Source of the DNA: Candidatus Fraserbacteria bacterium
GTDB lineage: Bacteria; Bipolaricaulota; Bipolaricaulia; RBG-16-55-9; JAJCYT01
Length of the DNA: 64,000 nucleotides
NCBI GenBank assembly: GCA_029262795.1
Contig: JAJCYT010000018.1
Span: forward strand, 195,762-259,761
Reading direction: 5' to 3'
Made by a program: the position numbers and the translations under genes. Of the stretch, positions 2,015 through 50,494 are shown piece by piece (positions within the stretch are counted from its first letter, which is position 1; every line of letters starts with the position of its first letter). The notes beneath the pieces are model-generated. The model saw only the letters and a program-made list of their open reading frames with translations, searched no databases and had not been told where the DNA came from.

Positions 2015-2029
2015 AGGAGGGGAAGGCTT

Positions 2030-2635: not shown

Positions 2636-2646
2636 AGGAGGCAGCG

Positions 2647-7048: not shown

Positions 7049-7531
7049 TTAAACAACGATGAGTGGAACCTTCATACCAGCTTCGTAATGGCCGGTCACA
7101 AAGCAACCGATTTCCCATTCACCCTTCTTGTCTTCAGGAATCTGGATGAAGACTTCTGCACCTGATTCACCTTGGTGGGTTTCCACACCAAAGAAACCGT
7201 CCAACAACCACTCTTTGTAGTTGTGGTTTTCCAGGTCAGGGTCTCTACCGAACAGTGCATTATGGGCGACATCATCGTCCAGGTTAAAGAAATAGAGAGC
7301 GTATTTCTTGCCTGCTTCAAGCGTGATAGGAGCGTTGTTTTCGCCGCCAGGAATGCGGAAAAACATGGACCCCATTTCGATGAAAATTTCCTCATCCAAC
7401 CAAAGTTCGTGTGGTTCATCGGCTTGAGCTCGAACGTTTCTGGATTTCACCATTGTAGCGGCCAGTCCACCCAGAGCTGCTGCACCTGCGGTTTTGAGCG
7501 CTTTGCGGCGCGTCATTTTCTTTTCAGACAT
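7049..7531 (-). CDS. Tat-exported cupredoxin (blue copper) domain protein
   Basis: Twin-arginine signal MTRRKALKTAGAAALGGLAA; C-terminal type-1 Cu motif GCFVTGHYEAGM (C-x4-H-x4-M). Confidence 0.6.
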   Translation of the reverse strand: MSEKKMTRRKALKTAGAAALGGLAATMVKSRNVRAQADEPHELWLDEEIFIEMGSMFFRIPGGENNAPITLEAGKKYALYFFNLDDDVAHNALFGRDPDLENHNYKEWLLDGFFGVETHQGESGAEVFIQIPEDKKGEWEIGCFVTGHYEAGMKVPLIVV

Positions 7532-8362: not shown

Positions 8363-9941
8363 GCAATCCTCCTAACGACGTTGGCAATGCCTGATGTGCC
8401 AAGGGCAAGGCGAACCAGAAGTGGCTTCCCTCACCAAGTGCGCTGTCAAAGGCCAGCGTTCCGCCCATCAGGTCAACGTAGCGATTGACCACAGTTAGCC
8501 CCAATCCCATGCCTTGACGATTACGACCCGTTCGTTCTGCGCGGGTGAACGGCTCAAACAGCCTGTTTTGATCCTGCAGCGCAACCCCGATGCCAGTGTC
8601 GGACACCGAGAAATAGATGGAATGATTCCGGCGTTCAGCAAAAACCCGTACTTGACCACAGTCGGTGTATTTGATTGCGTTGTCAATTAGATTCAATAAC
8701 ACCTGTCTCAACTTGGTCTTATCGGTTTTCACTGGCAGGCTGGGTGCGACGTCGACCACCAGCTTGAGCCCTTTATTTAATAGCAATGGCCGTTGGCTTT
8801 CGAGCACTTCGTCCACGACCTCGGCCGCATTGAAATACACGCAGTGCAGGGGTTCGCTGCTGCCTTCCAGCCTGGAAAACTCGATTAAATTCTCGATCAG
8901 CGCCAGCAAGTGTTTGCCCGCCCGCAGGATGGCATCTGTGTATTGATGACCCGCTTTACTGAGTGTGACATTGACCTCATCCCGCAGCAGACTGGCGAAC
9001 CCCAGCACGGAGTGTAGCGGGGTTCGCAATTCATGACTGATTGTGGTTAAGAAATCGGATTTGGCGTGGTTGGCTTTCTTTAACTCTACATTCGTACGCC
9101 TCAATATATCTCGCTGATAGACGATCGAGTGGGCCATTGTGTTGAACTCATTGGCCAGCATCTCAATTTCGTCTCCGCTGTGAATATTGGTGCGAACAGA
9201 CACCCTGCCGGATCCAAATGCTCGCATCGTGTCGCTTAAGTGCTCGATTGGTCCCAAGATCATGCGGAACAAAATCCAACTGCACAGGATGCCCAGCGCC
9301 ATCAACCCCAAGCTCAATCCGATGAGCAACAGCGATTCCTGTTGCAACTCCTGTTTCAGTGGTTGCAACGAAAATCCCACACGAACGTAACTGTCGCCGC
9401 CATTGATCAGGCGCTCGTACGCTTGCGGCGTGATGAAGCGGCCGTATTTCGATAGGGAGTTGCTGGCTTGCTCAAAAGGATAAATGATGTCGAGGTGGTT
9501 GGCATCTGCTTGACTGGGCTTAAACTCGGTGATCAGGATCTGTGTGGACGGTGGTTGCGTGGCCAGGTTGATGTCAAAACGCTGCTTTTGGGAAACCATG
9601 TTGCCATACAACACTATCTGTACATAACCCAGTTCCTCTGTCCACAAGTGTTCGGCCAACGTGTCCAGGTCGTGACCAACCTCAAAGATCAGTCCCTCCA
9701 CTGCTTCCTCAGCGGCGTGCCTAGCATACTTCAGCGCTTGCTGCTCGTATTGAGCCTTGAGTTGGTTATTTAAGCGCTGTGTGGTTAAGACCCCAAAAGC
9801 AACGGCCACAATCACACTGAACCCCAAGAACGCGAGCATAAATTTGTAGCGTAAGCTCAAGCGCATGGGGTCCCCTTCTCCAATCAACGGATCGCGGCCT
9901 GAAATCTGACCGCGACCACTGGTCGTTGCGGCCTTAACCAT
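8343..9941 (-). CDS. sensor histidine kinase
   Basis: HisKA H-box SHELRTPLHSVLGF, HATPase N/G boxes (LIDNAIKYT, GMGLGLTVV), two TM segments; likely start at internal MRLSLRYKF. Confidence 0.85.
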   Translation of the reverse strand: MVKAATTSGRGQISGRDPLIGEGDPMRLSLRYKFMLAFLGFSVIVAVAFGVLTTQRLNNQLKAQYEQQALKYARHAAEEAVEGLIFEVGHDLDTLAEHLWTEELGYVQIVLYGNMVSQKQRFDINLATQPPSTQILITEFKPSQADANHLDIIYPFEQASNSLSKYGRFITPQAYERLINGGDSYVRVGFSLQPLKQELQQESLLLIGLSLGLMALGILCSWILFRMILGPIEHLSDTMRAFGSGRVSVRTNIHSGDEIEMLANEFNTMAHSIVYQRDILRRTNVELKKANHAKSDFLTTISHELRTPLHSVLGFASLLRDEVNVTLSKAGHQYTDAILRAGKHLLALIENLIEFSRLEGSSEPLHCVYFNAAEVVDEVLESQRPLLLNKGLKLVVDVAPSLPVKTDKTKLRQVLLNLIDNAIKYTDCGQVRVFAERRNHSIYFSVSDTGIGVALQDQNRLFEPFTRAERTGRNRQGMGLGLTVVNRYVDLMGGTLAFDSALGEGSHFWFALPLAHQALPTSLGGLHETARH

Positions 9942-10902
9942 CTTGATTGATCAATTGCTCCAACGTTTCAAAAAACGCCGTGGTCAGGGGGACGTTCTGC
10001 CGATACTGGATCACACCTTCTGGGTCAATAATGAGTGCACCCGTTGAGGTGAACCCGTAGTAGACGGCTGTTTTTAAGCCATCCATCAATAAGGTGAAAT
10101 CGACTTCCCGTTCCTGCTTGAATGCCTTGAGTGTTTCGGGATCAGGTGCCAAATCCATGGTCACCCCCAGCACGGCCACATCGTCTCCATAGGCCTCCAA
10201 TGCCTGCTGCAAAGGAGAGAGTACATCGCCACAGTTGGCGTCATGAGAACCAAAGAAGCCCAATACAATTGTTTTTCCTGCGTAGTCCGACAAGCTCACC
10301 GGCTCGAGGTCCAGGTTTTCCAGCGTGAAAGCCAGAGCCCTTTTTCCCACCTGATTGCCCACCTCCAACTCGCCGACCAATGTTTCGACCATGTCAGCAG
10401 ACTCGTCATCGAAGACTTTGTTCGTCTCCTTGAGGCGGATGATGCCGTCTTTGTCGATGAGGAACAGGATGGGGGTTGCAAACACGCGATAGTCAAAGGC
10501 AGTCTCAAGTGCGTTGACCAGAATCGGAAAACCAAGTGCCTTTTCTTCACGATAGGCTTTGAGCTGTTCCAGGTCAGGCTGCGGATCCTGGTTCAGTGAG
10601 AGCACTTGAATTTGTTCACGGCTATAAACGTCGTGCACGCGAGATTGGAGCGCCGGCATTTCGACCTCTCGACACTCAATACAACCCCATCCCCAGAACG
10701 TCAGGGCGACCACCTTGCCCCTGAAATCAGACAGCGACACCTCATTTCCATCCAGGTCGAACAAGCTGAAATCGGGCGCCATCTCGCCCACAACACCTTG
10801 GCCAAAAGCGGTGGATGGGCCCAGCATCAAGCTCAACACCCCCACCACAAGCGCCAACCTCCAGGCGGATCGAACAGCAGACCACATGTTACATCCCCTC
10901 AC
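9934..10902 (-). CDS. two-domain secreted TlpA-like thiol:disulfide oxidoreductase
   Basis: Signal peptide; domain 1 FWGWGCIECR CxxC motif; domain 2 thioredoxin-like with single Cys (FFGSHDANCGDV). Confidence 0.7.
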   Translation of the reverse strand: MRGCNMWSAVRSAWRLALVVGVLSLMLGPSTAFGQGVVGEMAPDFSLFDLDGNEVSLSDFRGKVVALTFWGWGCIECREVEMPALQSRVHDVYSREQIQVLSLNQDPQPDLEQLKAYREEKALGFPILVNALETAFDYRVFATPILFLIDKDGIIRLKETNKVFDDESADMVETLVGELEVGNQVGKRALAFTLENLDLEPVSLSDYAGKTIVLGFFGSHDANCGDVLSPLQQALEAYGDDVAVLGVTMDLAPDPETLKAFKQEREVDFTLLMDGLKTAVYYGFTSTGALIIDPEGVIQYRQNVPLTTAFFETLEQLINQDG

Positions 10903-11461
10903 TTTCAGGTAACTCGGCTACGAGTTCGTCGATGAAGGTCTTGACCTCTTCATCAAACAACCTGTTTCCTTCTTTAAAGCGGATCACGCCTTCGTGATCG
11001 ACGATGATCAAAATCGGGGTGGCAAACACCAGGTAGTCCACCGCAGTCTTCAACCCGTCAACAAGCATGGGGTACGTGATCTGTTTGTCCGCTATGTATT
11101 CGCGGATGTTGCCCAGATTTGGGTCGACGTCCTGATTTACCGCCAACACAAGCACTTGTTCGCGTGAAAAAACGTCCCACACTTCGTGTTGTAAGGCTGG
11201 CATCTCTTCTTCCTTACATGAGATGCACGTCCATCCCCAGAACGTCATGACCACAACTTTGCCGGCGTGGTCGGAGAGGGTGAAATCAACCGTCTCCGTG
11301 TCGACATCCTCTAGGGGGTTGAGGTTCATCAAGGTAAAATCGGGCGCGAGGTCGCCCACATTGGGACCGACCACAGGTTCATCCTGTGCGTTCAAAGCCA
11401 CGCCAAAACACATGCCCAAACTCAACACAATTACCCAAACTGCTAATTTTTTTTTGTACAT
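10889..11461 (-). CDS. secreted TlpA-like thiol:disulfide oxidoreductase
   Basis: Signal peptide LAVWVIVLSLGMCFGVALNA; FWGWTCISCK CxxC motif; paralogue of the adjacent gene. Confidence 0.7.
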   Translation of the reverse strand: MYKKKLAVWVIVLSLGMCFGVALNAQDEPVVGPNVGDLAPDFTLMNLNPLEDVDTETVDFTLSDHAGKVVVMTFWGWTCISCKEEEMPALQHEVWDVFSREQVLVLAVNQDVDPNLGNIREYIADKQITYPMLVDGLKTAVDYLVFATPILIIVDHEGVIRFKEGNRLFDEEVKTFIDELVAELPESEGM

Positions 11462-11692: not shown

Positions 11693-11932
11693 ATGACTGA
11701 GAAAAAAGTGGAAATTTACAGCGGCCCCAACTGCGGCCCTTGCCAATCGGCAAAAAAATATTTTCAGGAACATGACGTTGTGTTCACCGAATACAACGTT
11801 GCTCTAGAGCCAGAGCGTGCGGTTGAGTTGGTGCAATTATCCGGCTCTCAAAGCATCCCCGTAATCGTGATTGACGGCAAGGTAATCAGGGGGTTTAAGA
11901 AAGACGAAATCGCTGCAGAGCTCGGCATTTAG
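11693..11932 (+). CDS. glutaredoxin-like (NrdH/Grx fold) small redox protein
   Basis: GGAGG RBS; VEIYSGPNCGPCQSAKKYF...SIPVIVIDGKVIRGF. Confidence 0.7.
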   Translation: MTEKKVEIYSGPNCGPCQSAKKYFQEHDVVFTEYNVALEPERAVELVQLSGSQSIPVIVIDGKVIRGFKKDEIAAELGI

Positions 11933-13171: not shown

Positions 13172-14149
13172 TTACCAGAAACGTCCCACCCGGTTAGGTG
13201 TGTCCTGCGAATACGGATAGGAAGTGTGGTTAAACGAAGTTGACCTGCTGTAATACAGGACGTCCGGATAAAAATTGTCTGGCGTAACGCCATCCCGGAT
13301 CATCACTTTGGCCATCACCGACGCCTGCATCAGCGTGAGGTAATTGTCCCAAGTGAACACCCCGTGCAACAGTTTTTGATCAAACAGATCTTTCCAAGTG
13401 TCAGGTGCAAACACCGATCCCAGCTTAATCAGCCGGTCTGTACCTGCCGTGACAGCCTGAATGGCAGCTGCAGCGCCAGCAGCGTATCTCGAATGGGAAA
13501 CCATCACATACTCAATCGGTTCGGTTTCGTCGGCGATGGCTTGTGCGGTTTCTGCGCGGCCATCGCTCAAGGCTTCATAGAAACCTCCGAAGGAGTCTAA
13601 TTCCATGAGCGGTGAGATGAAGGCGTTTTGGGTTGTATCGGACAAATTACCGACCACCACAAAGCGTCCACCATCCTGTTGTTCGGCCATGACTTTACCC
13701 AGTTCAGCCATATCAACGCCGGCAAAGGGCAGGTTCAGTTCGGGGATGTTGCGACCGTGCAACACTACGGGAACCTGTTTTGCTGCATTGCTAATGGCAT
13801 TGCTCACCAAGCTGAAATCATCCACTGGAGTGATGACCAGTCCTTGCACACCTGCGGCAAGCAGGGAGTCAATCGCAGCGACCTGATCTGCGGCCGTGCT
13901 GGCTTCGCGGATGTCTACCAGATAATGCTGAGGTTCGACATCGGGCAGGTCACGCGAGCTGGCGTTGCCTTCTGGCACTGGCAATACTTGCAAATCACCA
14001 TTGATTGGGTTGGTGTAGAATTGAATCCCCCACACTTGACCGTCGATCTTGTAGGTCACCACACCAATGATAATGTCGGGCTGGCTTTGGGCGATCACCA
14101 AAGGGGCAACCAGAGCCGCCAGCAACATAAAGATGAAAAAGCGTTTCAT
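13172..14149 (-). CDS. secreted periplasmic-binding-protein type 1-like protein, 13 nt downstream of deiodinase-like selenoprotein gene
   Basis: IIIGVVTYKID...; AAIDSLLAAGVQGLVITPVDDFSLVSNAISNAAKQVPVV; RFVVVGNLSD; LLHGVFTWDNYLTLMQASV = PBP1 hallmarks. Confidence 0.55.
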   Translation of the reverse strand: MKRFFIFMLLAALVAPLVIAQSQPDIIIGVVTYKIDGQVWGIQFYTNPINGDLQVLPVPEGNASSRDLPDVEPQHYLVDIREASTAADQVAAIDSLLAAGVQGLVITPVDDFSLVSNAISNAAKQVPVVLHGRNIPELNLPFAGVDMAELGKVMAEQQDGGRFVVVGNLSDTTQNAFISPLMELDSFGGFYEALSDGRAETAQAIADETEPIEYVMVSHSRYAAGAAAAIQAVTAGTDRLIKLGSVFAPDTWKDLFDQKLLHGVFTWDNYLTLMQASVMAKVMIRDGVTPDNFYPDVLYYSRSTSFNHTSYPYSQDTPNRVGRFW

Positions 14150-14161: not shown

Positions 14162-14953
14162 TTAAAAGCCTGGTTCCACACCGAAGATGTTGCTCAACAC
14201 TTCGTCGTGCTGTTCGGGGCGTTCCCAGTTCTTGAAGTGGATGATCCGGCCCTTGAGGTCGATGACCATGCCAAATTGTGGCCCCATGCCCATTGAACTT
14301 GACACAACGGTGGTCGTGGAGCTTGTCCGCTCGAGCAAGTTGATTTTGTCTTCCTCAATAAGGAGGATGTGGTTTTCAGGACGAACGCCGTTTTCTACGT
14401 AGGAGAAGGTTTTCTCCATCAACAACGCACGTTCACGTCGGGCAGCATAAGTTTCTACGTCTAAAACTTCTGACTGCGTGAATTCAGGATGGCGTTCGCG
14501 GCCGTATAGATTAACGATCACGAATGGGAATTCGATGAATTTTTCTGCAATCTTATTGTTCGGAACCCAGTTCCGTAAATAAGGTGGTCAGTACCAGCTG
14601 CCGTTGATCAGCAGTACAAATTTTTCACCGCGGAACTGGGACAGCGTAACGGGCACACCATCTCTGGTCAGCTGTGTGAAATCAGGCACGATCATGCCTG
14701 GCTGAACAACGTCAGGGCTACGGAAACCGTATCTTGGATCGAGTTCACCGGCTGCAACCAAACCTGGTGCGGTGTCGGTGAAGAAATTTGGATCGGCCAG
14801 ACCTGCCTCTGTGTAGTACTCTTCGGCGAGAGCCTGCCAGGCGTCCAACTCTCCTTCTTCATAATTTTGTGACAACACTGTGCTTTGGCCTAAAATCATA
14901 AAGGCCAGTGCAACGAGGGCTGCCAAGGTGAGAACTTTACGCATGTTGATCAT
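14162..14953 (-). CDS. periplasmic iodothyronine-deiodinase-like selenoprotein (Prx-like fold); in-frame TGA at 14588..14590 read as Sec
   Basis: ORF track splits at TGA (14588..14953 and 14162..14521, same frame). Read-through gives ...FVLLINGSWY-U-PPYLRNWVPNNKIAEKFIEFPFVIVNLYGRERHPEF.... Matches eukaryotic DIO active site FGSCT-U-PPF and downstream FLIIYIEEAHPSDGW pattern. Signal peptide present. Paralogue at 17683..18411 has TGA at same position. Confidence 0.65.
14561..14575 (-). other. candidate bacterial SECIS hairpin ~12 nt 3' of UGA
   Basis: mRNA CGGAAC-ugg-GUUCCG immediately downstream of UGA-CCA-CCU-UAU-UUA. Confidence 0.4.
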
Positions 14954-16582: not shown

Positions 16583-17668
16583 TTAACCAAACCACCAATA
16601 CCAGATCATGCCGAACTGACGTTCGCTCTCATAAGGGAAACGCACGTAAGCGGGCAATCCGCCACCAATGGCACCTGTTCCCAGCCACATGATGGACACA
16701 TAATTGTCGTTCAACGGCGTGCCATCGAGCAAATGCACCTTGAGGGCAACAAGACCATCCAACAGCATTGGATAGTAGTCGGGTTGTACGTTGCCTTTGA
16801 TACGTTTTTGCTGGATCAGGCTGGTAAAGTTTTCCGGTGCGCCAAACACCCCCACCGAGATCTTGCGTTCGGAATCGATCACGGCTTCAACGATGTTTGC
16901 GGTCAACTGATGATCCATCACCGCAATGCCCACCAAGGCTTCGTTTGCTGCAATCAGAGCCGCAGTTTCTGAAGCATCCGTGGTGACCACGACTTCCAGC
17001 AAGTGATCGCCAACGGCTTCCTTAAAGCCTTCGATCATGCCCATTTGCAAAGGATCATCCAAGCTGGTGGCAAACAAGGCCACTTTGTCTTCGTCAGCTC
17101 GGTTTCCGAATGCTCCGGCACCATTGAGTGGTTCTTGAGGAGCAGATAACGCCATCCAGCCACGGCCCCAAGCGTTGCCAAATGCAAATGGTTCAACCCC
17201 AACAAATGCGGCATTGTTAATGCCAGGGATGTCCCGATAAGCAAACGCCATGGGAATGCCGGCGCGGATGGTGCGTTCCACTTCGTCGCGCAGAGCATTC
17301 ACATTGGGAACCGGCGTCAACAAGATACCATCGACACCCAGCTCTCGAAGTTCTTGCAACGCGGCAATTTGGGCTTCTGCCGTATCGGCGTTTCTAACGA
17401 CCAACTCGACCAGCGGTTTATTTTGCACGGCTGGGGTTTCCAGCACCCCGCCGCCAGTTTCGCCATAGGCACCCTGAATCGGCAACACGTTGATGTCTCC
17501 CAACAGCTTGCCGGGGTCAGCCAGCCTGGCTGTGGACATGGCTAGAAAATCCACCTGATAGGTGATCACTCCCAACACCATCGTCCCGTTTTCCTGGGCC
17601 ACATTACTAACCGTGCTGGCGCTCACCAAAACAGCTATTGCCAGCATGAGTATAAAGATACGTTTCAT
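16583..17668 (-). CDS. secreted periplasmic-binding-protein type 1-like protein, 12 nt downstream of second deiodinase-like selenoprotein gene
   Basis: MVLGVITYQVD; AAEAQIAALQELRELGVDGILLTPVPNVNALRDEVERTIRAGIPMAFAYRD; ISVGVFGAPE. Confidence 0.55.
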   Translation of the reverse strand: MKRIFILMLAIAVLVSASTVSNVAQENGTMVLGVITYQVDFLAMSTARLADPGKLLGDINVLPIQGAYGETGGGVLETPAVQNKPLVELVVRNADTAEAQIAALQELRELGVDGILLTPVPNVNALRDEVERTIRAGIPMAFAYRDIPGINNAAFVGVEPFAFGNAWGRGWMALSAPQEPLNGAGAFGNRADEDKVALFATSLDDPLQMGMIEGFKEAVGDHLLEVVVTTDASETAALIAANEALVGIAVMDHQLTANIVEAVIDSERKISVGVFGAPENFTSLIQQKRIKGNVQPDYYPMLLDGLVALKVHLLDGTPLNDNYVSIMWLGTGAIGGGLPAYVRFPYESERQFGMIWYWWFG

Positions 17669-17682: not shown

Positions 17683-18411
17683 CTATAATCCGGGTTCCAG
17701 GCCGAAAATCTGGCTGAGAACTTCGTCCAGTTTTTCCGGTCGTTCCCAAATCTGCGATTCAACGATATGTCCGGTTGGATCGATGATCCAAGCGCCTTGT
17801 GGCCGCAGCCCATAGAGGGCGGTTGCCACGGTGGCCATGGTTGGCTGTTCGTGCCCGACATCGGGGATTTGCCCCACCGGGAAGCTTTCATCGATGAGCA
17901 GATAACGGTTGGCTGGGAATGCCTGTGATGTGAGGTTCAGCGTCAGCATCATCAGGCGCGCCCGTTCAAGGCGTTCTGCATAGGTTTCGATGAGCCATTC
18001 TTCATCGGTTACAAATTCTGGATGACGTTCACGACCGTAGATCGACAAGATCACAACTGGGAAGTCGGCAAATTTCTGACCTAATTTATCCATAGGAAGC
18101 ACGTTCCTGAGGAATGGTGGTCAGTACCAGCTCCCAGTTTCTATTACAACAAACGAATTGTCCAGGTATTGGCTCAGGCTGAATTCAATCCCGTTGATAT
18201 CCAACAGGGTGAAATCCGGCCCCAACATCCCTGGCATAATCGCTGAAAAGTCATTGAATTGATTACCCAACAGCGCATTTTCATCAACGCCTTCAACATA
18301 AAAGGCTTGCGCATTGGCAATCCAGGTGTCCATATCGCCCTGAGCTGAAGTAATGCTGCTGAACAGCGCCAGTGCCAGTGCAAAAATGGACATCATTCTG
18401 AAGACTTTCAT
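17683..18411 (-). CDS. periplasmic iodothyronine-deiodinase-like selenoprotein; in-frame TGA at 18121..18123 read as Sec
   Basis: Split ORFs 18121..18411 and 17683..18102 in same frame. Read-through gives ...FVVIETGSWY-U-PPFLRNVLPMDKLGQKFADFPVVILSIYGRERHPEF.... Signal peptide MMSIFALALALFSSITSA. Hairpin AGGAAgcacgUUCCU (18094..18108) after UGA. Confidence 0.65.
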
Positions 18412-18536: not shown

Positions 18537-19652
18537 TCAGTTCACATGGTTGACCAAGGGCGATCCCAAGTGTTCATTCAGAATTTGGATCGCCGTGTTG
18601 TCAAAATCTTCACCGCGGTAAAGGATCACACCATTGATATCCAGCAATAGAAACACAAAGTCACCCGAAGCCTGATAGGCCCAGGCCACATCCCCCAACT
18701 CATCTTTTACAACGGCATAGGTAATCCCGGCACTTCTAATAAAATCCTTGAGCACCTCGATTGGCGAATACTGGTCGATGCCCAGTACGGTCAACTTTTC
18801 CGGGCCATAATCATCCAACAAATCCTGGGCAAACAAACCTGGCACCAGCGAGCCACATTCCACGCATCCCGTCCCCCAAAACGACAGCAGGATGAGTTTG
18901 CCTCGATTGTAAAAATCAGACAAGGTCAGGGGATTGCCTTCCACATCGTTTAAGGTAAAATCGATGGCTTGTAATCCTGCCTGATTGCCTATCTCAGGCA
19001 GGGCGGCCATGTTGGCCTCTTCCAGCAGTTGCCCGACCAGATCAAAACCACTTCTATAATCCAGGTCTTCTTCGGTGGGACCACCATATCCTGTGTCCCG
19101 AAATCGTATGATTCCATTGGCATCAAGCACCAAGAGGGTGGGATGCCCTTCTGTGGTATCCAGGTTGTATTGCGCATAGATTTCAGCGAAATATCTTCCC
19201 ACACCAATGTCCATGGAAAGCCAGGGAAAAGTGACCCCCAGTTCTCTTTTGAAGGCATGTAAGTACCACTCAGGGTCGCCGGTGGAAATTGCAAGCCATT
19301 GCACGTTTTGTCCGTTGTATCTTCCATCGATTTCTTTTTGCATCTCCGGCAGCCATGCCGATGGGCAGGATGGTCAGGTGGCAGCAAAGAAGAAGTACAA
19401 CACAGTCACATCATACTGCTCGACTTGCTCCTGCAGTTGAATGGGGTCTCCGCCGCCCAACTGAGGCAGGGTGAAATCGGGCGCTTGCTGACCCACGTCA
19501 TACCCGATTTCGACTGAGACATTTGAAGCTTCTGCATAAGTGATGATTGGATCAGTCGTGGTTGTGGCCGTCAGCCCAATCAGAACAACCCACAAGAAGG
19601 CCTTTGTCCATTTAAGTTTTGTTGTGTACTTAAACATGATCGTTCCTCCCAA
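18537..19652 (-). CDS. two-domain periplasmic thioredoxin-like selenoprotein (U-P-S-C in domain 1, WGTGCVECG in domain 2); in-frame TGA at 19374..19376
   Basis: Split ORFs 19374..19652 and 18537..19343 in same frame. Read-through gives ...VLYFFFAAT-U-PSCPSAWLPEMQKEIDGRY.... Paralogue of 5345..6493. Hairpin CGGCA-uggc-UGCCG (19347..19360 region) follows UGA. Confidence 0.6.
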
Positions 19653-19681: not shown

Positions 19682-20467
19682 TCAAAAATCAATCACGACA
19701 TTTTGCCAATATTGGTCCTGCAACCAGAGTGGCAGTTGCATGGGGTTGTCTGCATGGCAAGCGAAACAGTCCACACCTGTTATAAAGTCGTCTTTGACAA
19801 AACGGTTTGAAATTTCGATTGCCTCATGGGTGGCCGGAACGGAGGTCTGATGGCAGCCCGGACAACCAAACAGATCGCGCCAAGTGGGGTCCATCAGCGC
19901 ACGCGGTGTGAACCTGGAATGGCAATTGGCACAGGTGGTCTTTTCGACATAACTGGAAATCGTGACGCTGTCATCGTTTTGTTCAATTTGAAATTCATTA
20001 TGGCAAAAGGTGCATTCCGTGCCAAAATCCATAATCTTCTGCTTCTGATGCACCTGATGGTGGTTCTTTTCTTCAGTGATTTCGATGGCGCCATCTTCGG
20101 TAGGCATTTTTCGCATCACGGTTTCCTGGCTATAGATGTCGCTGTGACACGTCAGACAGGTTTGTCCCAATTTCGCAACATCTTCAGGGACTTCACTCAC
20201 CGTGTTGAGGTTAAGGTGAAATTGGGCCACCTGATCAAATAGTGTTGCCACTGCCGGATGAGGGCCAGGGGTGCTTGAGCTGGTTGAAATTACCGAGCCC
20301 GTTATCAACACGTCTTCCAGGCTGTGCCCGTCTGAAGGAAAGTTCAGCGGCGGCGCTGCCTGTGCAATTTGTATCAGAAACAAACTCATCAAGATAAATG
20401 CAATCCCTCGTAAACGTTTCATTTTTCTGTTCATTGTGGTTTTTTTTGTTTTCATGATGACCTTCAA
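19682..20467 (-). CDS. pentaheme c-type cytochrome (secreted/periplasmic)
   Basis: Five CxxCH motifs: CLTCH, CTFCH, CANCH, CPGCH, CFACH; signal peptide GIAFILMSLFLIQIAQA. Confidence 0.8.
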   Translation of the reverse strand: MKVIMKTKKTTMNRKMKRLRGIAFILMSLFLIQIAQAAPPLNFPSDGHSLEDVLITGSVISTSSSTPGPHPAVATLFDQVAQFHLNLNTVSEVPEDVAKLGQTCLTCHSDIYSQETVMRKMPTEDGAIEITEEKNHHQVHQKQKIMDFGTECTFCHNEFQIEQNDDSVTISSYVEKTTCANCHSRFTPRALMDPTWRDLFGCPGCHQTSVPATHEAIEISNRFVKDDFITGVDCFACHADNPMQLPLWLQDQYWQNVVIDF

Positions 20468-27451: not shown

Positions 27452-27839
27452 CTATTCCAAGATTCAACATCCTACCAAATTGCTGTTCCACAAAATCTGC
27501 TCTCTAAGGCATCTCACAAATTTAAAAAGAGCCTTTGGCAACGGATAGTTTTTATAAAAAAGACCCAAAAGATATGGTTATACAAGAGAGAATAAAAGAG
27601 TTTCTATCATTAGGTTTTGACAAATTGTAGAATTTAGTGTATACCTGATTTGCTAGGAAACAACTTTGGGGAGTTGCTGTTGACTCTAAGGAAGATAGGG
27701 AGGAAGGGTTGGGGTTCATCATGGGGTAGTTAGCCGTTCGTTCTTAATAAATCTCTTCAAACTTTTTTTTATCACTCTATTTATCATTTTTGCTAGTAGT
27801 GACTTCATAACGCTTTCTCAAAATAACTGTCCACTATTC

Positions 27840-30800
27840 TTGAATCCAACCTTAACAATTGAGCCAACAACCGCACGTCAAGGAGAATTGTTCATTGAGC
27901 GGGGAACCGGATATTGTGCTAATACTGTTGCAACTATGTTTATCGGCATACCAAATAGTGCAACTGTCGAACAAAGAGAAATTCAAATTGACCAAAACGG
28001 CGAATTCTATATTCCTTTTGTTGTTCCCTTAAGTTATCCACTCGGGGCAGGCTGGATTGAAGTTGAAGATGTTGGAGGATTTATTAGTCCAAGGATCACA
28101 TTTACAGTCGAGCCAGTTCAAGATTCTCCCGATATTCCTGTGGTATCAAATTGCGATTTTCAGGCTCCCCCTTTGCTTGTATCTGAAGACAATGCTCCAT
28201 TGGGAAATAGAATTCCTTTGATGCTTGTTCACGGAATAACATCTGAGTGTGAACTTGGTGAACTTGAACTAAATAGAGAAGGTTGGAGAGCATTTGTCGA
28301 GTCTTTTTGGAATGAGAGCCTTGATACAAATTTCAAGCTATTTAGATTCAGATATGCAAGCTCCAAACAACACGTAAATCAATCTGCAAAACAATTGAAA
28401 GATGTTATCAATACTGATGCAGAATTATCCCAATCAAACAATATTGTTGTAGTTGCACATAGTATGGGAGGGCTTGTTACGTTAGATTACATGATCAATC
28501 AAGGTCAAGGTGACAAAATACAAAAGCTTATCTCTCTTGCTACCCCATATCAAGGAACCCCATTTGGATCCTTAGTAAAATATTTAAATGCACGCAAGAA
28601 AAGTGAAACACTAAATGACTTTGTAGATCTTTTCTGGCCAAATCTACAAGATATTCTTCAAGTTCTTAGCATTACTCCTCTTGAGCAATTAATTGAAAAT
28701 GCAAATGAGGATCTTAACAATCTTGCCTGGGGTTATGCAGGACTTTCCAATATCACTGATACCTCTTTAGATTCACTAAAATCAATCGGCAATGGAGTTT
28801 ATTCACAAAGGTATCCTATAAATATGGAATCTTATTTCAACAATGGTTATCTTGTTTCTCTTGCTAACAACCTATCAATAGACCATAAAATAAAGGCATA
28901 TTGCGGCAGTATTCCTCCTGATAATGGCTTCGACATATTAAATTCACCATCTCTAATTGATGCACTTGATATGGATCTTGTACAAGACTACTTAGCTGGT
29001 CTATTAAGCTTACTTCCTCAAGAATTTCAAAGCGATGGCATTGTTCCTAGAAGTAGTGCCGAATTTGATGGTCAGGATGTTGAAAGAAGGCTTGAGGGAT
29101 GCTTCCCAAACACTAATCATACAAATATGCCCAGTCATACCCTTGTCATTAATGCTGTATTAGAGGATCTTAGAAGAATTTGGGAGATTAACTCTGAGCC
29201 AATTCTAGTTGAAGTTGATCTTGATCTCGGTGATGGTCCCTTTGAAGTTGGGAAACTAATCAATGGATCTTTTACTATCAAGAATCAGCATACCCAGCCA
29301 ATTACCTTGAATTCCCTAACTGTTGGTGGTCGATATGATCAATTTGGACTCAATGAAATATGGGATTTTCCGCACCGAAAAAACCTGATATTGGATGCAG
29401 GAGCTACTTACACATATATAGATACATTTACTCCAACAAAGGCGGGCGAATATCATTTCTTTGTAGGCTATGAAATTGCTCCAAATCCTTGGAACACCAA
29501 TGTCCCAAACTTATCTGGTAATGTTGTAAATGCCGATATTGTAGTTTCTAATGATGTTGCCTTACCAAAGGCAGATTTAACTGTTGATTCAGTCTTTGCT
29601 CCAACTGTTGCAAAACATGGAGACTCTATTTCCGTATCCTGGAGAGCCAAGAATATAGGAACTACAAGTTCTTCATCTTTTAATAGCTTGATATCTTTAT
29701 CAATACCTCCATTTGGCACCACATATCCTCTTGGTACTTTTTCATCTAATTCCATAGGCGCAGGAGGAAACAGCAATGAGACGCAAACCATGCAGATTCC
29801 AAACAACATTCCTCCAGGCGATTATTACGTTACCGTGTTTGTGGACAGTTTGGATGCCGTTATGGAAGGGAATGAAAATAACAACATCAATAAGGCATCA
29901 AATAGAATTGCTATTATCTCCAACCAACCTGTAGCAGAACCATTTATTACGTTCCAGAAAACCCTTCGTCCATCATCTGATCCTCTGTGTAACGGTGAAA
30001 TTGCTTGTGGTCCTCAAATTGATTTAACAAGTTCTGACCCTACAGATGGATCAAGAGATGTGATCTTTCGACTAGAGGTGACCAATACAGGCGGTGCAGC
30101 AGCCACCTTTAGTTTGCTGGATCCACTTGGGAATGGCGATTTTGTTTGTGTGGAAGCAGCACAAAACCCAATGGCTGCTTGTAACATCAATAGCAATGAA
30201 TTGCGAATAGAAAGCCAAGTGGTTCAACCAAATTCGATCTGGTTTTATGATTTTCGAGCAAGATATGTGGGCAGCACTCAGGCAGATGGTGCAGTAATTC
30301 CGAATACAGCTGAAATCATTTGGATTGACAATTATTACGATGCAGCATTAGGCATTGACAATGGCCGACATGGGGCATTGTCCGATTTTGAAGATACGTT
30401 TTTGAGTAACCCTTCGGTCAATCATGTAGGTGGAATAACTTTTAGCAGCAATCCTTCTGGAAGAACACTCACTGTACAAGGCCAAACGGTTCAAACCCCT
30501 TACACGTTAGAGTGTAATCCTGGATCATTGGTTTCAGCCTCTACCAATCTTACTCAAACAGCACCCAGTCATGGCCGATATAGTTTCCGCAACTGGAGCA
30601 ATGGCAGTTTCCTTCAAAGTCTGTCAATAACATGCCCAAATGGAGGAACAACCATGACAGCTATTTATGATCTCCAGTATCAATTGATTACATCAGCCGC
30701 ACCCAATGGAACAGGCAATGTTTCTTTGAATCCTGCAATAGTTGGAAATTGGTACAATGTCGGCAGCTCAGCTCAGCTCACACCAAATCCTATCAACGGG

Positions 30801-33800
30801 CAAGAGTTCTCACATTGGAGCGATGATTGTTCAGGTACAATTCAAATTTTCACTATAACAATCACTAAGCGAATACTTTGCACAGCCAATTTCATTTTAA
30901 TGGAACCAGATTCACCATCATTGTCTGCGACTGCGATATTTACGCATCAAATCAACCTGAATTGGACAAGCATACCGGGAGCGAGTAGCTATACTATTGA
31001 ACGCAAAGATCCAGGCAGTGAGTATCTAGCCCTCTCTATGGTGAGTTCTACAAGCTATGTTGATAATTCACCTGGCCGCCCATTATTGACAAACGCTGAA
31101 TATTGCTACCGTGTTCGACCACAAGGATTTTCTCCACCAGCACCTTATTCCAATGAATACTGTCTTTATACAAGAGCTGCGACTCCAAATGCGCCTACAG
31201 TGTCCAGTCCATCTGCTATCACTTTATTTGTCACAGTCAATCCTGGGAACAACCCTACCAACACATGGTTTGCGTTGTTCAATGAAACAGCCAATTACTA
31301 TGTTTCCGGCGGTGGCGAAAACAATGGCATGAATCCGTATTGGCTTCCAGCAGCAAATTGGGGTACCACTCTGGTGCGTGCTCTGAACTCAAATACCACC
31401 TATCGATTCAAGGTGAAGGCTAGAAATGGCTCAGGCATTGAAACAGGATTTGGCCCAACAGGTTCAGGAACCACAGCCACAGGCATTACAAAACCAACCA
31501 ATATTGCTCCAGCTCACAATGCGACAGGTGTTTCATTCACCGCAACGCTCCAAGCATCAGTATTTAATGCACCACACACATTGACTCATTCGGCAACACG
31601 ATGGCAGATTCGCATAAACAGTGGAAGTTTCGATGAACCACTTTGGGACAGCCATGAATTCAATGAGAATTTGACGAGTCGAACAGTCCCTAGCCATATT
31701 TTGGAAGGTAACACAATTTATTGGTGGCGAGTCAGCTACCGTGCCTTTGATCAGAATAACACCAAAGTTTGGTCGCCTTGGTCAGATGAAACAAAGTTCA
31801 CCACTGTTGGAGCGCCTATTGGTGGAAATGTCAATCTTGCCAACACGCCATGTCCAACCTATCGCTGCAACTTAGAACGAAATGGTTTAAGCTCATATAT
31901 CGGCCCAGAAAATCCCACTCAGAAATGGAAAACCTCCATCAGGGGCGGCTTTGAAAGCCCTGTTATTGGGCTGAATGGTGAAATTTATTACACCTATGAC
32001 AATCGTCTAAGAAAAATTGATCAAGAAACTGGGAATGAAATTGCCAACTATTTGTCAGGTGATATCAGCGGAATTGCAGCTGCCACGCTTCGAGGCGATG
32101 GATTAATTTATGTATCTTCCCTTAATGAGCAACTAACTGGCACAACCAGTGCGGGGGATGTTGTCATTCAAACATCTTTAGTTGGACGACCTGACAACTC
32201 ATCACCTGCTATCGGAAGTGATGGAACTGTTTATGTTGTTACAAATCAGGGAACTTTGTATTTTATTACTCCATCTGGCGGAATTATTCGAACCAAGTCG
32301 CACAACCCAACATCAACTTCTCCCACATTGGGAACTGATGGAACCATCTATGTTCTTTCCCTTCGTGCATCAATCGAGAATGGAAAACTATATGCTTATA
32401 ATCCCAATGGTAGTCTGAAATGGGCATTTGATACAGGCGGAACAGCTCTTAATCAAAGCACACCCGCTGTTGGTCCTGATGGAACCATTCACTTTATAGG
32501 CCGAAAAGGCTTCGGTGATTATGGGATTTTTGCCGTTCGCTCTGATGGAACAGAGAAGTGGTTCAGACCATTGTCTGATTCTATAGGCACAGGGTCACCA
32601 GCAGTTGGGCCTGATGGCACGGTCTACTTTACAGCAGGTGACCTTAAGCTCTATGCACTGAACTCAGCAAATGGTAATACAATTTGGACTCATCCTTTGC
32701 CCTCATTCCCTTGGGGGGCACCTGCTATTGATGCGAATGGCACTATATATGCAACTGGTGGTGCTACTTTGCTTGCTGTGAATCCAAATGGAACTAAAAA
32801 GTGGGAGATCACACTTGACGGAAATATCTATGCATCACCTGTAATAGATCAAGATGGCACATTGTATATTGCAACGACTTCTGACTCGCTATATGCGTTT
32901 GAGAATTCAGGCAGCTCAGGTCAACAATTCACCCTGACTGTTGGCAACAATGGCAGTGGCACTGTGACCAGCAGTGATGGTTTCATCAATTGCGGTAGCA
33001 GTTGTCAAAAATCCTATGATAGTGGAACCACTGTTGTTTTGACACCAACGCCAAGCAGTGGATACACCTTCTCGCACTGGAGTGGAGATGCAGACTGTGA
33101 CGATAACCAAGTATCCATAACTGCCAATCGCACTTGTACCGCACATTTCACAATCAATTCTTACAATGTCACCGTGAATGTGGTTGGTTCAGGTAGTATT
33201 TCTTTCTCTCCTCCAGGTACAAATTGTGGCTCCAATTGCCGCACTTATGATGCAGGCACACAGGTTACTATTACAGCCAGTCCAAGTTCAGGTTATGAGT
33301 TTAGCAATTGGCCTCCAGTTGGGTGTGATTCAATCAATGGAAATCGCTGTACCACAACAGTGAATGGCAGTATCACGACTACGGCAACTTTTGTTCAGAT
33401 TTCTAACGCATCATCAAAAATCGTCTTTGACTCTCAAAGGGATGGGAATAGAGAAATTTATGCAATGAACTCAGATGGCACTAACCAAACTCGTTTAACC
33501 AGCAATAATGACTTTGATGGCGATCCTGTTTGGTCGCCAGATGGTTCGAAGATTGCTTTTATTTCGGATAGAGATGGAAATAGAGAAGTCTATGTGATGA
33601 ACGCCAATGGCACGAATCCAACTCGTCTCACGAACACTAGCGCCTTTGAGGGTAGCCCAGCATGGTCACCCGATGGAATCAAGATCGCATTCATTTCGGC
33701 AAGAGATGGGAACAATGAAGTCTATGTGATGAATGCCAATGGCTCTAACCAAACTCGATTCACTAGCAACAATGTTTTTGAGGGAGATCCAGACTGGTCA

Positions 33801-41918: not shown

Positions 41919-41922
41919 ACTC

Positions 41923-46946: not shown

Positions 46947-47000
46947 AATAGTTCTCGCGAGATATTGAGAACGCTAAATAAGACAGACTAGAGGGAGATT

Positions 47001-50395: not shown

Positions 50396-50494
50396 CAGGC
50401 CTATTCTGGTGACCTGACGGAGCCAGGAAAAGGGAAGTTCGAAATCTCTGCGTGACAGAAAGATCCTGAACGCAGCCTAATTAAAGGGCTTTAA

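What the first reader, a model, noticed from the sequence alone, without database searches (positions are those of the whole stretch)
18537..19652. Second UxxC thioredoxin-like two-domain selenoprotein paralogue
...VLYFFFAAT-U-PSCPSAWLPEMQKEIDGRY... is the paralogue of 5345..6493. It has identical TGA placement and the same CGGCA-UGGC-UGCCG downstream hairpin, and its domain 2 retains a normal CxxC (WGTGCVECG). Each copy therefore mixes a selenol-thiol centre and a dithiol centre, which could act as an intramolecular relay.
Basis: partly seen in the sequence, partly recalled or inferred. Interest (0 to 1): 0.75.

Follow-up and report, generated by a model that had tools for sequence, protein, structure and literature searches.

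The report
Two-domain periplasmic selenocysteine redoxin gene
This is a real but database-truncated bacterial gene for an exported two-domain disulfide-reducing enzyme whose first active site uses selenocysteine (encoded by an in-frame UGA plus a downstream RNA hairpin); it belongs to an already known class of peroxiredoxin-like UxxC selenoproteins, with a conserved five-haem cytochrome c neighbour as its only unusual trait.

Summary
Window 18537..19637 (-) is one 366-codon reading frame interrupted only by TGA at 19374..19376, giving ...YFFFAAT-U-PSC-P.... Both halves hit AhpC-TSA/Redoxin, and domain 2 keeps WGTGCVECG. It is 46% identical to the 5345..6493 copy. The same codon is TGA in all 14 distinct loci recovered from other metagenomes and one MAG. 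Third-codon positions vary on both sides of it, and a 5-6 bp hairpin with a UGGN loop 18 nt downstream meets the published bacterial SECIS model. One Cys homologue (CPAC) exists. tRNA-Sec and selA lie beside a third paralogue that the protein index places on the same 282-kb NCBI contig. TGA is otherwise a normal terminator here.

Domain 1 is a Prx/BCP-like scaffold with a thioredoxin-type UxxC and cis-Pro, but without the peroxiredoxin Pro/Thr/Arg signature. This places it among the 'Prx-like thiol:disulfide oxidoreductase' selenoproteins described since 2004-2005. Domain 2 is TlpA/ResA-like.

New here are the fusion, the almost exclusive use of Sec, and a co-transcribed pentahaem cytochrome c in about 9 of 14 loci. 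The intramolecular relay is plausible but untested. Public protein calls are truncated at the TGA. Verdict: new member of a known kind, moderate interest.

The parts
18537..19637 (-). Complete coding sequence of the two-domain selenoprotein: 366 residues including Sec88, with the terminator TGA at 18537..18539.
   Evidence: There is one frame with a single internal TGA. A GGGAGG sequence lies 7 nt upstream of ATG 19637. Gene callers split it into 87-aa and 268-aa products.
19527..19637 (-). N-terminal export signal or membrane anchor (MFKYTTKLKWTKAFLWVVLIGLTATTTTDPIITYAEA).
   Evidence: Read by eye: a basic n-region, a hydrophobic core and an AEA motif. All homologues have a comparable N-terminus. 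No signal-peptide predictor was available, so this is inference.
19374..19376 (-). UGA codon read as selenocysteine (Sec88), the first residue of the U-P-S-C motif.
   Evidence: TGA is found in 14 of 14 homologous loci. Cys occupies this position in P0060.
19365..19367 (-). Cys91, the resolving cysteine of UxxC.
   Evidence: TGC or TGT in 14 of 14 loci. It aligns with the peroxidatic Cys of BCP and AhpE.
19339..19367 (-). SECIS-like element. The core hairpin is U-CGGCA / UGGC / UGCCG-G at 19346..19361, with an optional lower stem UGC:GCA.
   Evidence: The loop is 4 nt with G at position 2, the stem is 5-6 bp, the loop starts 18 nt after the UGA, and the MFE is -10.5 kcal/mol. The Pro codon in the 3' arm is CCG in 14 of 14 loci, whereas the Pro codon right after the TGA uses 4 different codons.
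19014..19505 (-). Domain 1 (about residues 45-208): a Prx/BCP-like redoxin fold carrying UxxC and a cis-Pro-Thr (HPT) motif.
   Evidence: Pfam AhpC-TSA covers residues 48-179, E 1.3e-30 for the whole protein. The nearest solved sequences are BCP 2cx3 and AhpE. The model of the Cys homologue matches Bcp1, ResA, AhpE and CcmG.
18588..18983 (-). Domain 2 (about residues 219-350): a TlpA/ResA-like redoxin domain.
   Evidence: A second AhpC-TSA/Redoxin stretch. The NCBIfam ResA subfamily matches residues 219-338. The nearest solved sequences are 3kcm, 2ls5, 4nmu and ResA.
18855..18866 (-). The C258-V-E-C261 dithiol motif of domain 2.
   Evidence: Read from the sequence. Both cysteines are invariant in the nine aligned two-domain homologues.
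19682..20455 (-). Upstream pentahaem cytochrome c (5 CxxCH motifs), 44 nt from the selenoprotein start. It is the likely operon partner.
   Evidence: Orthologues lie directly upstream in 8 loci, with all five CxxCH motifs invariant.
5372..6493 (+). The paralogue in the same window, with Sec-TGA at 5633..5635, the hairpin UCGGCA-UGGU-UGCCGG, and WDWGCAVCG in domain 2.

Best explanation
The locus is a single gene for an exported 366-residue selenoprotein.

Decoding. During translation the UGA at 19374..19376 is decoded as selenocysteine. The mRNA hairpin 13-28 nt downstream (apical loop UGGC) acts as a bacterial SECIS element and recruits SelB with Sec-tRNASec.

Domains. The protein has two redoxin-fold domains. 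Domain 1 is a peroxiredoxin-like scaffold that works as a thioredoxin-type selenol/thiol:disulfide oxidoreductase through Sec88-x-x-Cys91. Domain 2 is a TlpA/ResA-like domain with Cys258-x-x-Cys261.

Most likely cycle. Sec88 attacks a disulfide (or other oxidised sulfur centre) in a periplasmic client. Cys91 resolves the mixed Se-S intermediate into an internal selenenylsulfide. That bond is re-reduced by the neighbouring CxxC domain or directly by a membrane CcdA/DsbD-type reductant.

Likely partner. The conserved, co-transcribed pentahaem cytochrome c is the most likely client or partner. The favoured role is keeping its haem-binding or other cysteines reduced, in the manner of ResA/CcmG.

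Shown versus inferred. Shown: the conserved in-frame UGA, the SECIS-like hairpin, the Sec/Cys pair, the Sec machinery on a contig of the same sample that also carries a paralogue, the domain families, the motif positions and the synteny. Inferred: export, the direction of electron flow, the identity of the client and the domain-to-domain relay.
For: Read-through:
- There is one frame with a single TGA.
- TGA is at this codon in 14 of 14 distinct loci that range from 36 to 79% protein identity.
- Across those loci, third-codon positions vary in 24 of 27 flanking codons and first/second positions in 23 of 54. This includes the 10 codons between the TGA and the annotated restart.
- All nine database homologues start just after the TGA, which means they are truncated gene calls.

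SECIS:
- The hairpin is kept in all loci.
- It shows a compensatory C-G to A-U change and a U.G to G-C change in L013b, and a register-shifted stem in L009 and L010.
- MFE is -10 to -19 kcal/mol.
- The stem Pro codon is CCG in 14 of 14 loci.
- All four constraints of the published bSECIS model are met (PMC13188914).

Machinery:
- tRNA-SeC(UCA) and selA lie about 4.7 kb from the third paralogue P0005.
- The protein index lists P0005 with the same longest contig (282,193 bp, NCBI) as P0001 and P0007.

Sec/Cys pair: P0060 has CPAC aligned to UPSC at 50% identity.

TGA is a normal stop in this genome: it ends 16 of 35 long ORFs, and this gene itself ends in TGA.

Fold and function:
- AhpC-TSA/Redoxin is hit twice.
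- Sec aligns with the Thr/Ser of the Prx motif Pxxx(T/S)xxC, and Cys91 aligns with the peroxidatic Cys.
- The Prx Arg position is occupied by the Pro of H-P-T, the cis-Pro of thiol-disulfide oxidoreductases.
- In the model of the Cys homologue, the first Cys sits at the N-terminus of helix 1.
- Domain 2 is nearest to TlpA/ResA structures.

Partner:
- The pentahaem cytochrome lies directly upstream with a 21-44 nt gap in most loci.
- resA-like, resB and ccsA genes precede the pair at the third paralogue, and a ccsA-type gene (PF01578) lies about 6 kb upstream at L010.
Against: - There is no experimental evidence of Se incorporation.
- Covariation in the hairpin is modest (25 of 500 shuffles reach the observed score), because the stem also encodes the conserved peptide S-A-W-L-P-E.
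- selB and selD were not located.
- The two-domain relay could not be modelled.
- Single-domain Sec forms exist.
- Domain 2 of this copy lacks the usual cis-Pro, having GDF where 3kcm has GVP.
- The first paralogue in the window and L013a lack the cytochrome neighbour, so the link is not obligatory.
- A canonical ResA-like gene already accompanies resB/ccsA at the third paralogue. This weakens the idea of a general cytochrome-maturation role.
- No CcdA/DsbD gene was found in the parts of the window that were scanned.
Confidence: 0.6

Rival explanations
1. The cytochrome is the electron donor, or acceptor, rather than the client. In this reading the pentahaem cytochrome c and the Sec redoxin form a periplasmic catalytic pair. 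The pair would couple haem electron transfer to reduction of a small oxidant at the Sec/Cys centre, such as a peroxide, a polysulfide or sulfane sulfur, or a selenium or arsenic species. Alternatively it would couple oxidation of a thiol substrate to cytochrome reduction.
For: - The cytochrome-redoxin gene pair is tight and conserved, and is duplicated as a pair within one genome.
- The family uses Sec almost exclusively, with 14 Sec forms against 1 Cys form. That is more typical of enzymes handling reactive substrates than of maturation factors.
- The nearest solved relatives of domain 1 are peroxidases: BCP, AhpE and LsfA.
- A five-haem plus one-Sec polysulfide reductase (MccSep) has recently been shown in Geobacter (PMC13510729).
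- The window also holds a DOMON/Rieske/cytochrome b set and two further Sec proteins.
Against: - The peroxiredoxin catalytic signature is absent: the Pro is Phe, the Thr is Sec, and the Arg is Pro.
- I know of no precedent for direct electron transfer from c-type haems to a redoxin disulfide. This point rests on my own knowledge and was not searched.
- MccSep is an unrelated architecture, with Sec in the cytochrome itself next to a Cys-ligated haem.
- No extra conserved Cys is seen in the cytochrome alignment beyond the five CxxCH motifs.
Confidence: 0.2
2. The TGA is a genuine stop. Under this rival the locus is either two separate genes (an 87-aa peptide and a 268-aa redoxin restarting at ATG 19343), or a pseudogene, or an assembly error.
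For: Every public gene call treats it this way. An ATG lies 10 codons after the TGA in this copy.
Against: - TGA lies at the identical codon in 14 independent loci, and none has TAA or TAG there.
- The 10 codons between the TGA and the ATG are conserved as protein while their synonymous sites vary.
- In many homologues the 'restart' is only a Leu codon (UUG of W-L-P-E) with no ATG.
- A split would cut the redoxin fold between strand 1 and the active-site helix. Pfam AhpC-TSA spans the TGA, covering residues 48-179.
- The Cys homologue is continuous.
Confidence: 0.04
3. UGA is reassigned genome-wide to Trp or Gly (genetic code 4 or 25) rather than being recoded to Sec at specific sites.
For: Four in-frame TGAs lie within 15 kb of each other.
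Against: - TGA terminates 16 of 35 long ORFs in the window, including this gene.
- Long ORFs up to 3533 aa are intact under table 11.
- All four in-frame TGAs sit at redox-motif positions and are followed by hairpins.
- The aligned residue in the homologue is Cys.
- tRNA-SeC and selA are present.
Confidence: 0.01

Closest known systems
Prx-like thiol:disulfide oxidoreductase selenoproteins (PF00578, UxxC/UxxU). They were first predicted in Geobacter, Syntrophus and Desulfotalea, and appear as 'Prx-like 1/3' in the Sargasso Sea and GOS surveys (PMC1088965, PMC1794560, PMC2398784, PMC13188914).
   Same: - It is a distant Prx homologue with a thioredoxin-like UxxC where Prx has TxxC or TxxU.
- The PF00578/PF08534 hit spans the Sec.
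- A bacterial SECIS hairpin follows the UGA directly.
- The predicted role is in thiol-disulfide redox chemistry.
- Fusions of Prx-like UxxC proteins to an extra CxxC-bearing domain are already reported (GOS, PMC2398784).
   Different: - Here the fusion partner is a second, TlpA/ResA-like redoxin domain.
- The subfamily is nearly all Sec, with one Cys form found, whereas Prx-like 1 has thousands of Cys homologues (PMC2398784).
- It is tied to a pentahaem cytochrome c gene.
- No NCBIfam model reaches its cut-off, and public records hold only truncated products.
- Direct similarity to the reference sequence WP_010940744.1 could not be tested.
ResA / CcmG / TlpA extracytoplasmic thiol-disulfide reductases (cytochrome c and cytochrome oxidase maturation).
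   Same: - It has a redoxin fold with an N-terminal anchor or signal, and a CxxC-type motif at the start of helix 1.
- Domain 1 has the cis-Pro-Thr.
- Domain 2 is nearest to ResA- and TlpA-like structures.
- The model of the domain 1 Cys homologue matches ResA, CcmG and DsbE.
- The gene neighbourhood contains c-type cytochromes, and in one paralogue resB/ccsA.
   Different: - Sec replaces the nucleophilic Cys.
- There are two fused domains.
- The ResA NCBIfam score is 77.7 against a cut-off of 170.
- Domain 2 of this copy lacks the cis-Pro.
- A canonical ResA-like gene is present separately.
BCP/PrxQ and AhpE peroxiredoxins.
   Same: They are the best sequence matches for domain 1 among solved structures (2cx3 at 2.6e-7, and AhpE). 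They are also among the top structural matches (3drn Bcp1, AhpE, LsfA).
   Different: The Prx signature Pxxx(T/S)xxC plus Arg is replaced by FxxxUxxC plus Pro. A peroxidatic mechanism of the Prx type is therefore not expected.
NF053656 'TUGYCR motif thioredoxin fold (seleno)protein' and the deiodinase-like selenoproteins (PF00837, NF038285).
   Same: The local T-U-x-x-C / T-U-P-S context resembles these families. There are weak local hits (E 0.0044 and 8.5e-5).
   Different: The scores are far below the cut-offs (16.9 against 100, and 22.2 against 250). There was no PF00837 hit at E <= 0.01.

Membership tests
Bacterial selenoprotein (site-specific UGA recoding) | An in-frame UGA conserved at the same codon in orthologues, with protein-level conservation on both sides. 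| tested here: met
   TGA in 14 of 14 loci. Third-codon positions vary in 24 of 27 flanking codons, against 23 of 54 first and second positions.
Bacterial selenoprotein (site-specific UGA recoding) | A bSECIS hairpin meeting the published constraints: loop 3-9 nt, upper stem 4-16 bp, G in the first two loop positions, 16-37 nt between the UGA and the loop, and MFE <= -7.5 kcal/mol (PMC13188914). | tested here: met
   The loop is UGGC (4 nt, G at position 2 followed by G). The stem is 5 bp plus a U.G pair. The spacing is 18 nt. The MFE is -10.5 kcal/mol. The hairpin is conserved in 13 of 14 loci with this loop rule. L022 has UUGC.
Bacterial selenoprotein (site-specific UGA recoding) | A Cys-containing homologue with Cys aligned to the UGA position. 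| tested here: met
   P0060 reads YFFYEYA-C-PAC and is 50% identical over 175 residues. It is the only one found.
Bacterial selenoprotein (site-specific UGA recoding) | The Sec-decoding machinery in the same genome: selC (tRNA-Sec), selA, selB and selD. | tested here: inconclusive
   tRNA-SeC(UCA) and selA were found on contig L004 beside paralogue P0005. That P0005 is on the same genome is inferred from the shared 282,193-bp longest contig in the protein index. selB and selD were not located. The window itself has only tRNA-Gln.
Bacterial selenoprotein (site-specific UGA recoding) | Demonstrated selenium in the protein (75Se labelling or mass spectrometry). | not testable with these tools
   This requires an experiment.
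Prx-like thiol:disulfide oxidoreductase selenoprotein (PF00578, UxxC) | The AhpC-TSA (PF00578) domain contains the Sec. | tested here: met
   PF00578 scores E 1.3e-30, with its best stretch at residues 48-179, which includes Sec88.
Prx-like thiol:disulfide oxidoreductase selenoprotein (PF00578, UxxC) | A thioredoxin-like UxxC in place of the TxxC/TxxU of true Prx (PMC1088965). | tested here: met
   U-P-S-C is present. Sec aligns with the Ser/Thr, and Cys91 with the peroxidatic Cys, of BCP and AhpE.
Prx-like thiol:disulfide oxidoreductase selenoprotein (PF00578, UxxC) | Sequence relatedness to the reference members (for example WP_010940744.1 of Geobacter sulfurreducens). | not tested
   The reference sequences cannot be fetched with these tools. 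The founding paper (EMBO Rep 2004) is not held.
Peroxiredoxin (BCP/PrxQ, AhpE) | The catalytic signature Pxxx(T/S)xxC plus a conserved Arg. | tested here: not met
   The motif here is F-A-A-T-U-P-S-C, so the Pro is Phe and the Thr/Ser position is Sec. The Arg position aligns with the Pro of H-P-T.
ResA/CcmG/TlpA thiol-disulfide reductases | A CxxC-type motif at the N-terminus of helix 1 in a redoxin fold with a cis-Pro loop. | tested here: met
   For domain 1, the model of the Cys homologue has its first Cys at residue 79 and helix 1 starting at residue 80, and H-P-T is present. For domain 2, CVEC is present but the cis-Pro is replaced by Phe in this copy.
ResA/CcmG/TlpA thiol-disulfide reductases | A score above the curated family cut-off (NCBIfam ResA NF002854, DsbE TIGR00385, TlpA NF047696). 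| tested here: not met
   The scores are 77.7 against 170, 34 against 123, and 29 against 230.
ResA/CcmG/TlpA thiol-disulfide reductases | Reduction by CcdA/DsbD and action on apocytochrome c or on Sco/CoxB. | not testable with these tools
   Only context is available: the cytochrome c neighbour in about 9 of 14 loci, and resB/ccsA nearby in L004 and L010.
TUGYCR-motif thioredoxin-fold (seleno)protein NF053656 | A score at or above the 100-bit cut-off. | tested here: not met
   16.9 bits, E 0.0044.
Deiodinase-like selenoprotein (PF00837 / NF038285) | A family model hit above its cut-off. | tested here: not met
   There was no PF00837 hit at E <= 0.01. NF038285 scores 22.2 bits against a 250 cut-off.

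The most novel reading that the evidence does not exclude
The conserved pair of pentahaem cytochrome c and two-domain Sec redoxin could be a previously undescribed periplasmic redox module. In some loci the pair is accompanied by a deiodinase-like Sec protein and a periplasmic binding protein. In this reading, c-type haems exchange electrons with a selenenylsulfide/dithiol relay to reduce, or oxidise, an external sulfur, selenium or peroxide substrate. It would be a split-gene counterpart in logic to the five-haem selenoenzyme MccSep.
Probability: 0.15. Interest if true: 0.7.

Novelty: new member of a known kind. Interest (0 to 1): 0.38.

Why it matters
In practical terms, the gene and at least 13 relatives are mis-annotated in public data as two ORFs or as a truncated 'peroxiredoxin'. 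No curated model catches them, so this adds an uncurated subfamily to the prokaryotic selenoproteome.

Biologically, the window holds four selenoprotein genes within about 15 kb. The subfamily is almost exclusively Sec-dependent, and it is repeatedly paired with a pentahaem cytochrome c. That pairing gives a concrete, testable handle on what Prx-like UxxC selenoproteins do. This class was predicted two decades ago, and the recent review notes that the functions of most prokaryotic selenoproteins remain unclear (PMC13188914). If the cytochrome proves to be a redox partner rather than a client, it would link haem electron transfer to selenol/thiol chemistry in the periplasm.

Tried and rejected
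Attempts that led nowhere:
The U-to-C sequence was not accepted, and the DNA reference contains a stop. Only the single-domain Cys homologue could be modelled.
- Rfam at gathering thresholds finds only the tRNA and no SECIS family.
- The genome-contig scan found just one related genome, a MAG labelled 'uncultured Thermotogae bacterium'. It did not return the window's own genome, so the organism remains unidentified.
- A search for the run accessions in papers found nothing.
- A weak T9SS sorting-domain hit in the 3533-aa neighbour hints at the FCB group, but no more than that.
- Searching with the Cys form P0060 returned only itself.
- A second look-up of P0005 with larger flanks returned only a short contig.
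- The founding 2004 paper is not held.

Readings considered and rejected:
- A true peroxiredoxin, because the signature is not met.
- A deiodinase or TUGYCR family member, because the scores are far below the cut-offs.
- Genome-wide UGA reassignment.
- A pseudogene or sequencing error, because the TGA is present in 14 of 14 loci.
- Two separate genes, because there is no conserved restart codon and the fold would be split.
Full report
**1. Observation**

On the minus strand, 18537..19652 is a single reading frame with one internal stop, TGA at + strand 19374..19376.

The likely start is ATG 19637, which is preceded by GGGAGGAACGATC, rather than the TTG at 19652. The product is then 366 residues, with Sec88, Cys91, Cys258 and Cys261. 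The gene ends in an ordinary TGA at 18537..18539.

The copy at 5345..6493 (+) has TGA at the homologous codon (5633..5635). It is 46% identical over 322 residues, E 8e-91. Both copies have the same hairpin 13 nt after the TGA: U-CGGCA/UGGC/UGCCG-G here and a UGGU loop in the other.

**2. Is the UGA read through?**

A search of 5.8 billion proteins found only nine close relatives. All of them start a few residues after the TGA position (MQKELDGRY... or MPEIQ...), so they are truncated gene calls.

I fetched the DNA of these relatives. I added one MAG from the genome collection and further metagenome contigs. That gave 14 distinct genes, and every one has TGA at this codon.

- Across the 27 codons flanking the TGA, third positions vary in 24 of 27 codons, whereas first and second positions vary at 23 of 54 sites.
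- The residues between the TGA and the annotated restart (P-S/T-C-P-S/A-x-W-L-P-E) are conserved as protein while their codons drift. For example, Pro+1 uses CCA, CCT, CCC and CCG.
- Many homologues have no ATG after the TGA, and the 'start' is the Leu codon of W-L-P-E.
- Pfam AhpC-TSA spans the TGA, covering residues 48-179.

These points exclude a pseudogene, a sequencing error and two separate genes.

Genome-wide reassignment of UGA is also excluded. TGA ends 16 of 35 long ORFs in the window, including this gene. ORFs up to 3533 aa are intact under table 11.

**3. The SECIS element**

The published bacterial SECIS model requires four things (PMC13188914):
- an apical loop of 3-9 nt;
- an upper stem of 4-16 bp;
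- a G in the first two loop positions, usually followed by G or U;
- 16-37 nt between the UGA and the loop, and MFE <= -7.5 kcal/mol.

Here the loop is UGGC, the stem is 5 bp plus a U.G pair, the spacing is 18 nt and the MFE is -10.5 kcal/mol.

Across 11 aligned loci the helix is 86% paired. L013b carries two compensatory changes: C-G to A-U through GCA>GAA plus CUG>CUU, and U.G to G-C. L009 and L010 use a register-shifted CCGGC/GCCGG stem.

The covariation statistics are modest, with 25 of 500 shuffles reaching the observed score. This is expected, because the stem also encodes a conserved peptide. The Pro codon in the 3' arm is CCG in 14 of 14 genes, whereas the other two Pro codons nearby vary freely. 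That argues for selection on the RNA as well as on the protein.

One locus (L022) has UUGC in the loop. Rfam has no family that matches.

**4. Sec machinery and the Sec/Cys pair**

A third paralogue (P0005) is listed by the protein index with the same longest contig (282,193 bp, NCBI) as the two window genes. On its contig it lies about 4.7 kb from tRNA-SeC(UCA) and selA. The gene order there is resA-like, resB, ccsA, pentahaem cytochrome c, Sec redoxin. selB and selD were not located.

A profile search of 1.84 billion cluster representatives found one continuous Cys form, P0060. It is a single domain reading ...YFFYEYA-C-PAC-ATEWLPEIQ..., and it is 50% identical to domain 1 with Cys aligned to Sec. 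It appears to be a singleton. Single-domain Sec forms also exist (P0044, P0046).

**5. What kind of protein it is**

Both halves hit AhpC-TSA/Redoxin.

*Domain 1.* Its nearest solved sequences are the peroxiredoxins BCP (2cx3) and AhpE. The alignments place Sec on the Ser/Thr of the Prx motif Pxxx(T/S)xxC, Cys91 on the peroxidatic Cys, Phe on the Prx Pro, and the Pro of H-P-T on the Prx Arg. Domain 1 is therefore a Prx-like scaffold with a thioredoxin-type UxxC and the cis-Pro-Thr of thiol-disulfide oxidoreductases. It is not a peroxidase of the Prx type.

An AlphaFold model of the Cys homologue (pLDDT 75, pTM 0.73) puts the first Cys at the N-terminus of helix 1. The model matches Bcp1, ResA, LsfA, AhpE, DsbE and CcmG about equally well.

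*Domain 2.* It is nearest to TlpA/ResA-like structures (3kcm, 2ls5, 4nmu and ResA) and to the NCBIfam ResA subfamily, but below the cut-off at 77.7 against 170. Its CxxC is invariant in nine two-domain relatives. In this copy the usual cis-Pro is replaced by Phe.

*Export.* The N-terminus looks like an export signal in every homologue. This is a by-eye inference.

**6. Context**

A roughly 250-residue cytochrome c with five invariant CxxCH motifs lies directly upstream, with a 21-44 nt gap. This holds for this gene and for L004, L006, L008, L010, L012, L013b and L014, and probably for L009. It does not hold for the window's first paralogue or for L013a.

Upstream of the pair in the window is a two-component system. 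Downstream lie a second type of in-frame-TGA gene and a periplasmic binding protein.

The whole 7-24 kb stretch is rich in extracytoplasmic redox genes, including Cys-type tandem redoxins, a glutaredoxin and a CsoR-like repressor. A DOMON/Rieske/cytochrome b set lies at the window start.

**7. Mechanism**

*Shown.* The UGA is conserved and translated. It is followed by a SECIS-like hairpin. tRNA-Sec and selA lie beside a paralogue that the protein index places on the same contig. Both domains carry redox motifs at the canonical position.

*Inferred.* The steps below are inferred from established chemistry of thioredoxin-fold CxxC/UxxC proteins.
- SelB with Sec-tRNASec binds the hairpin and inserts Sec88.
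- The exported protein uses the Sec88 selenolate as a nucleophile on a client disulfide.
- Cys91 resolves the intermediate to a selenenylsulfide.
- That bond is re-reduced by Cys258/Cys261 of domain 2 or by a CcdA/DsbD-type membrane reductant.

The cytochrome is the most likely client, in a ResA/CcmG-like role. The main rival is that it is a redox partner in a catalytic pair. The recent five-haem selenoenzyme MccSep is an analogy of logic only, not a homologue.

It has precedent in reported fusions of Prx-like UxxC selenoproteins to CxxC domains (PMC2398784). It could not be tested here.

**8. Comparison with what is known, and novelty**

UxxC 'Prx-like' selenoproteins with PF00578 or PF08534 domains have been catalogued since 2004-2005. 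They are described as distant Prx homologues with a thioredoxin-like UxxC (PMC1088965; PMC1794560; PMC2398784; tables in PMC9312934 and PMC13188914). By the naming rule of those reviews (domain plus Sec motif), this gene belongs to that kind.

What differs:
- the fusion to a TlpA/ResA-like domain;
- the near-exclusive use of Sec;
- the cytochrome synteny;
- the absence of any curated model or correct annotation.

I therefore rate it a new member of a known kind, of moderate interest.

Noticed in passing
window 17683..18411 (-), TGA at 18121..18123: A third in-frame-TGA gene lies immediately downstream of the finding...VIETGSWY-U-PPFLRNVL.... A GGAAC/GUGCU/UUCC-type hairpin follows the TGA. There is a weak AhpC-TSA hit across the TGA (E 3.4e-5). 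There is also a weak local hit to NCBIfam 'deiodinase family protein' (E 2e-6, 27.5 bits against a 250 cut-off). The same TGA is present in L008 and L014, where the hairpin stems differ in a compensatory way. L012 has a relative reading GNAT-U-PTF. This looks like a second, deiodinase-like selenoprotein family that is split in public gene calls.
   Followed up: partly
window 14162..14953 (-), TGA at 14588..14590: A fourth in-frame-TGA gene is a paralogue of the one above...LLINGSWY-U-PPYLRNWV.... Its hairpin is CGGAAC/UGG/GUUCCG. Like its paralogue, it is followed by a Peripla_BP_4 gene (13172..14149, compared with 16583..17668). The window therefore holds four predicted selenoprotein genes within about 15 kb.
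   Followed up: partly
L004 1..6798 (contig of sample SRR15505519, the sample that also yielded the window-matching contig L001): A third two-domain Sec paralogue (P0005) sits in the gene order selA, tRNA-SeC (divergent), then resA-like, resB, ccsA, pentahaem cytochrome c, Sec redoxin. NnrS and cytochrome oxidase genes lie downstream.
   Followed up: partly
window 9934..10887 (-), 10889..11461 (-), 11693..11932 (+): Cys-type relatives lie nearby. One is a two-domain redoxin with WGWGCIEC in domain 1 and only a single Cys (HDANCGD) in domain 2. Another is a single-domain redoxin with WGWTCISC. The third is a 79-aa glutaredoxin with CGPC. A second histidine kinase and response regulator pair follows them.
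   Followed up: partly
window about 27800..53300: This is a low-GC stretch (34-44% against about 50% elsewhere). It ends at a large serine recombinase (51780..53243) next to tRNA-Gln (53211..53284). It carries an SNF2 helicase/PLD protein, an Eco57I/MmeI-type restriction-methylase, an SMC-like ATPase, a GmrSD/Schlafen protein and a weak Rep_trans hit. It looks like an integrated island with defence genes.
   Followed up: no
window 27840..38441 (+): A giant 3533-aa ORF carries PD40/beta-propeller, Laminin_G_3, CARDB and InlB-type repeats. It has weak C-terminal T9SS sorting-domain hits (Por_Secre_tail, CHU_C). This is a hint, no more, that the host belongs to the FCB group.
   Followed up: no
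L013 4740..7770; L009 447..2030: There are architectural variants within the family. L013 has two Sec-redoxin genes in tandem, and only the second is preceded by the cytochrome. P0004 in L009 has a third redoxin-like domain without CxxC. P0044 and P0046 are single-domain Sec forms.
   Followed up: partly
window 18588..18983 (-) (domain 2): Domain 2 of this copy and its closest relatives has Phe or Glu-Phe where TlpA/ResA proteins have the cis-Pro (G-D-F-V-F against G-V-P-E-T in 3kcm). The other subgroup, which includes the 5345..6493 copy, keeps Pro (F-P-M-L). The meaning for activity is unknown.
   Followed up: no
window 471..3945 (+), 6533..6844 (+), 7049..7531 (-): A DOMON protein, a Rieske protein and a cytochrome b lie upstream of the first paralogue. 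Just downstream of it are a CsoR-type metal-sensing repressor and a 160-aa ORF with a Tat-like N-terminus (RRKALK) and no Pfam hit.
   Followed up: no
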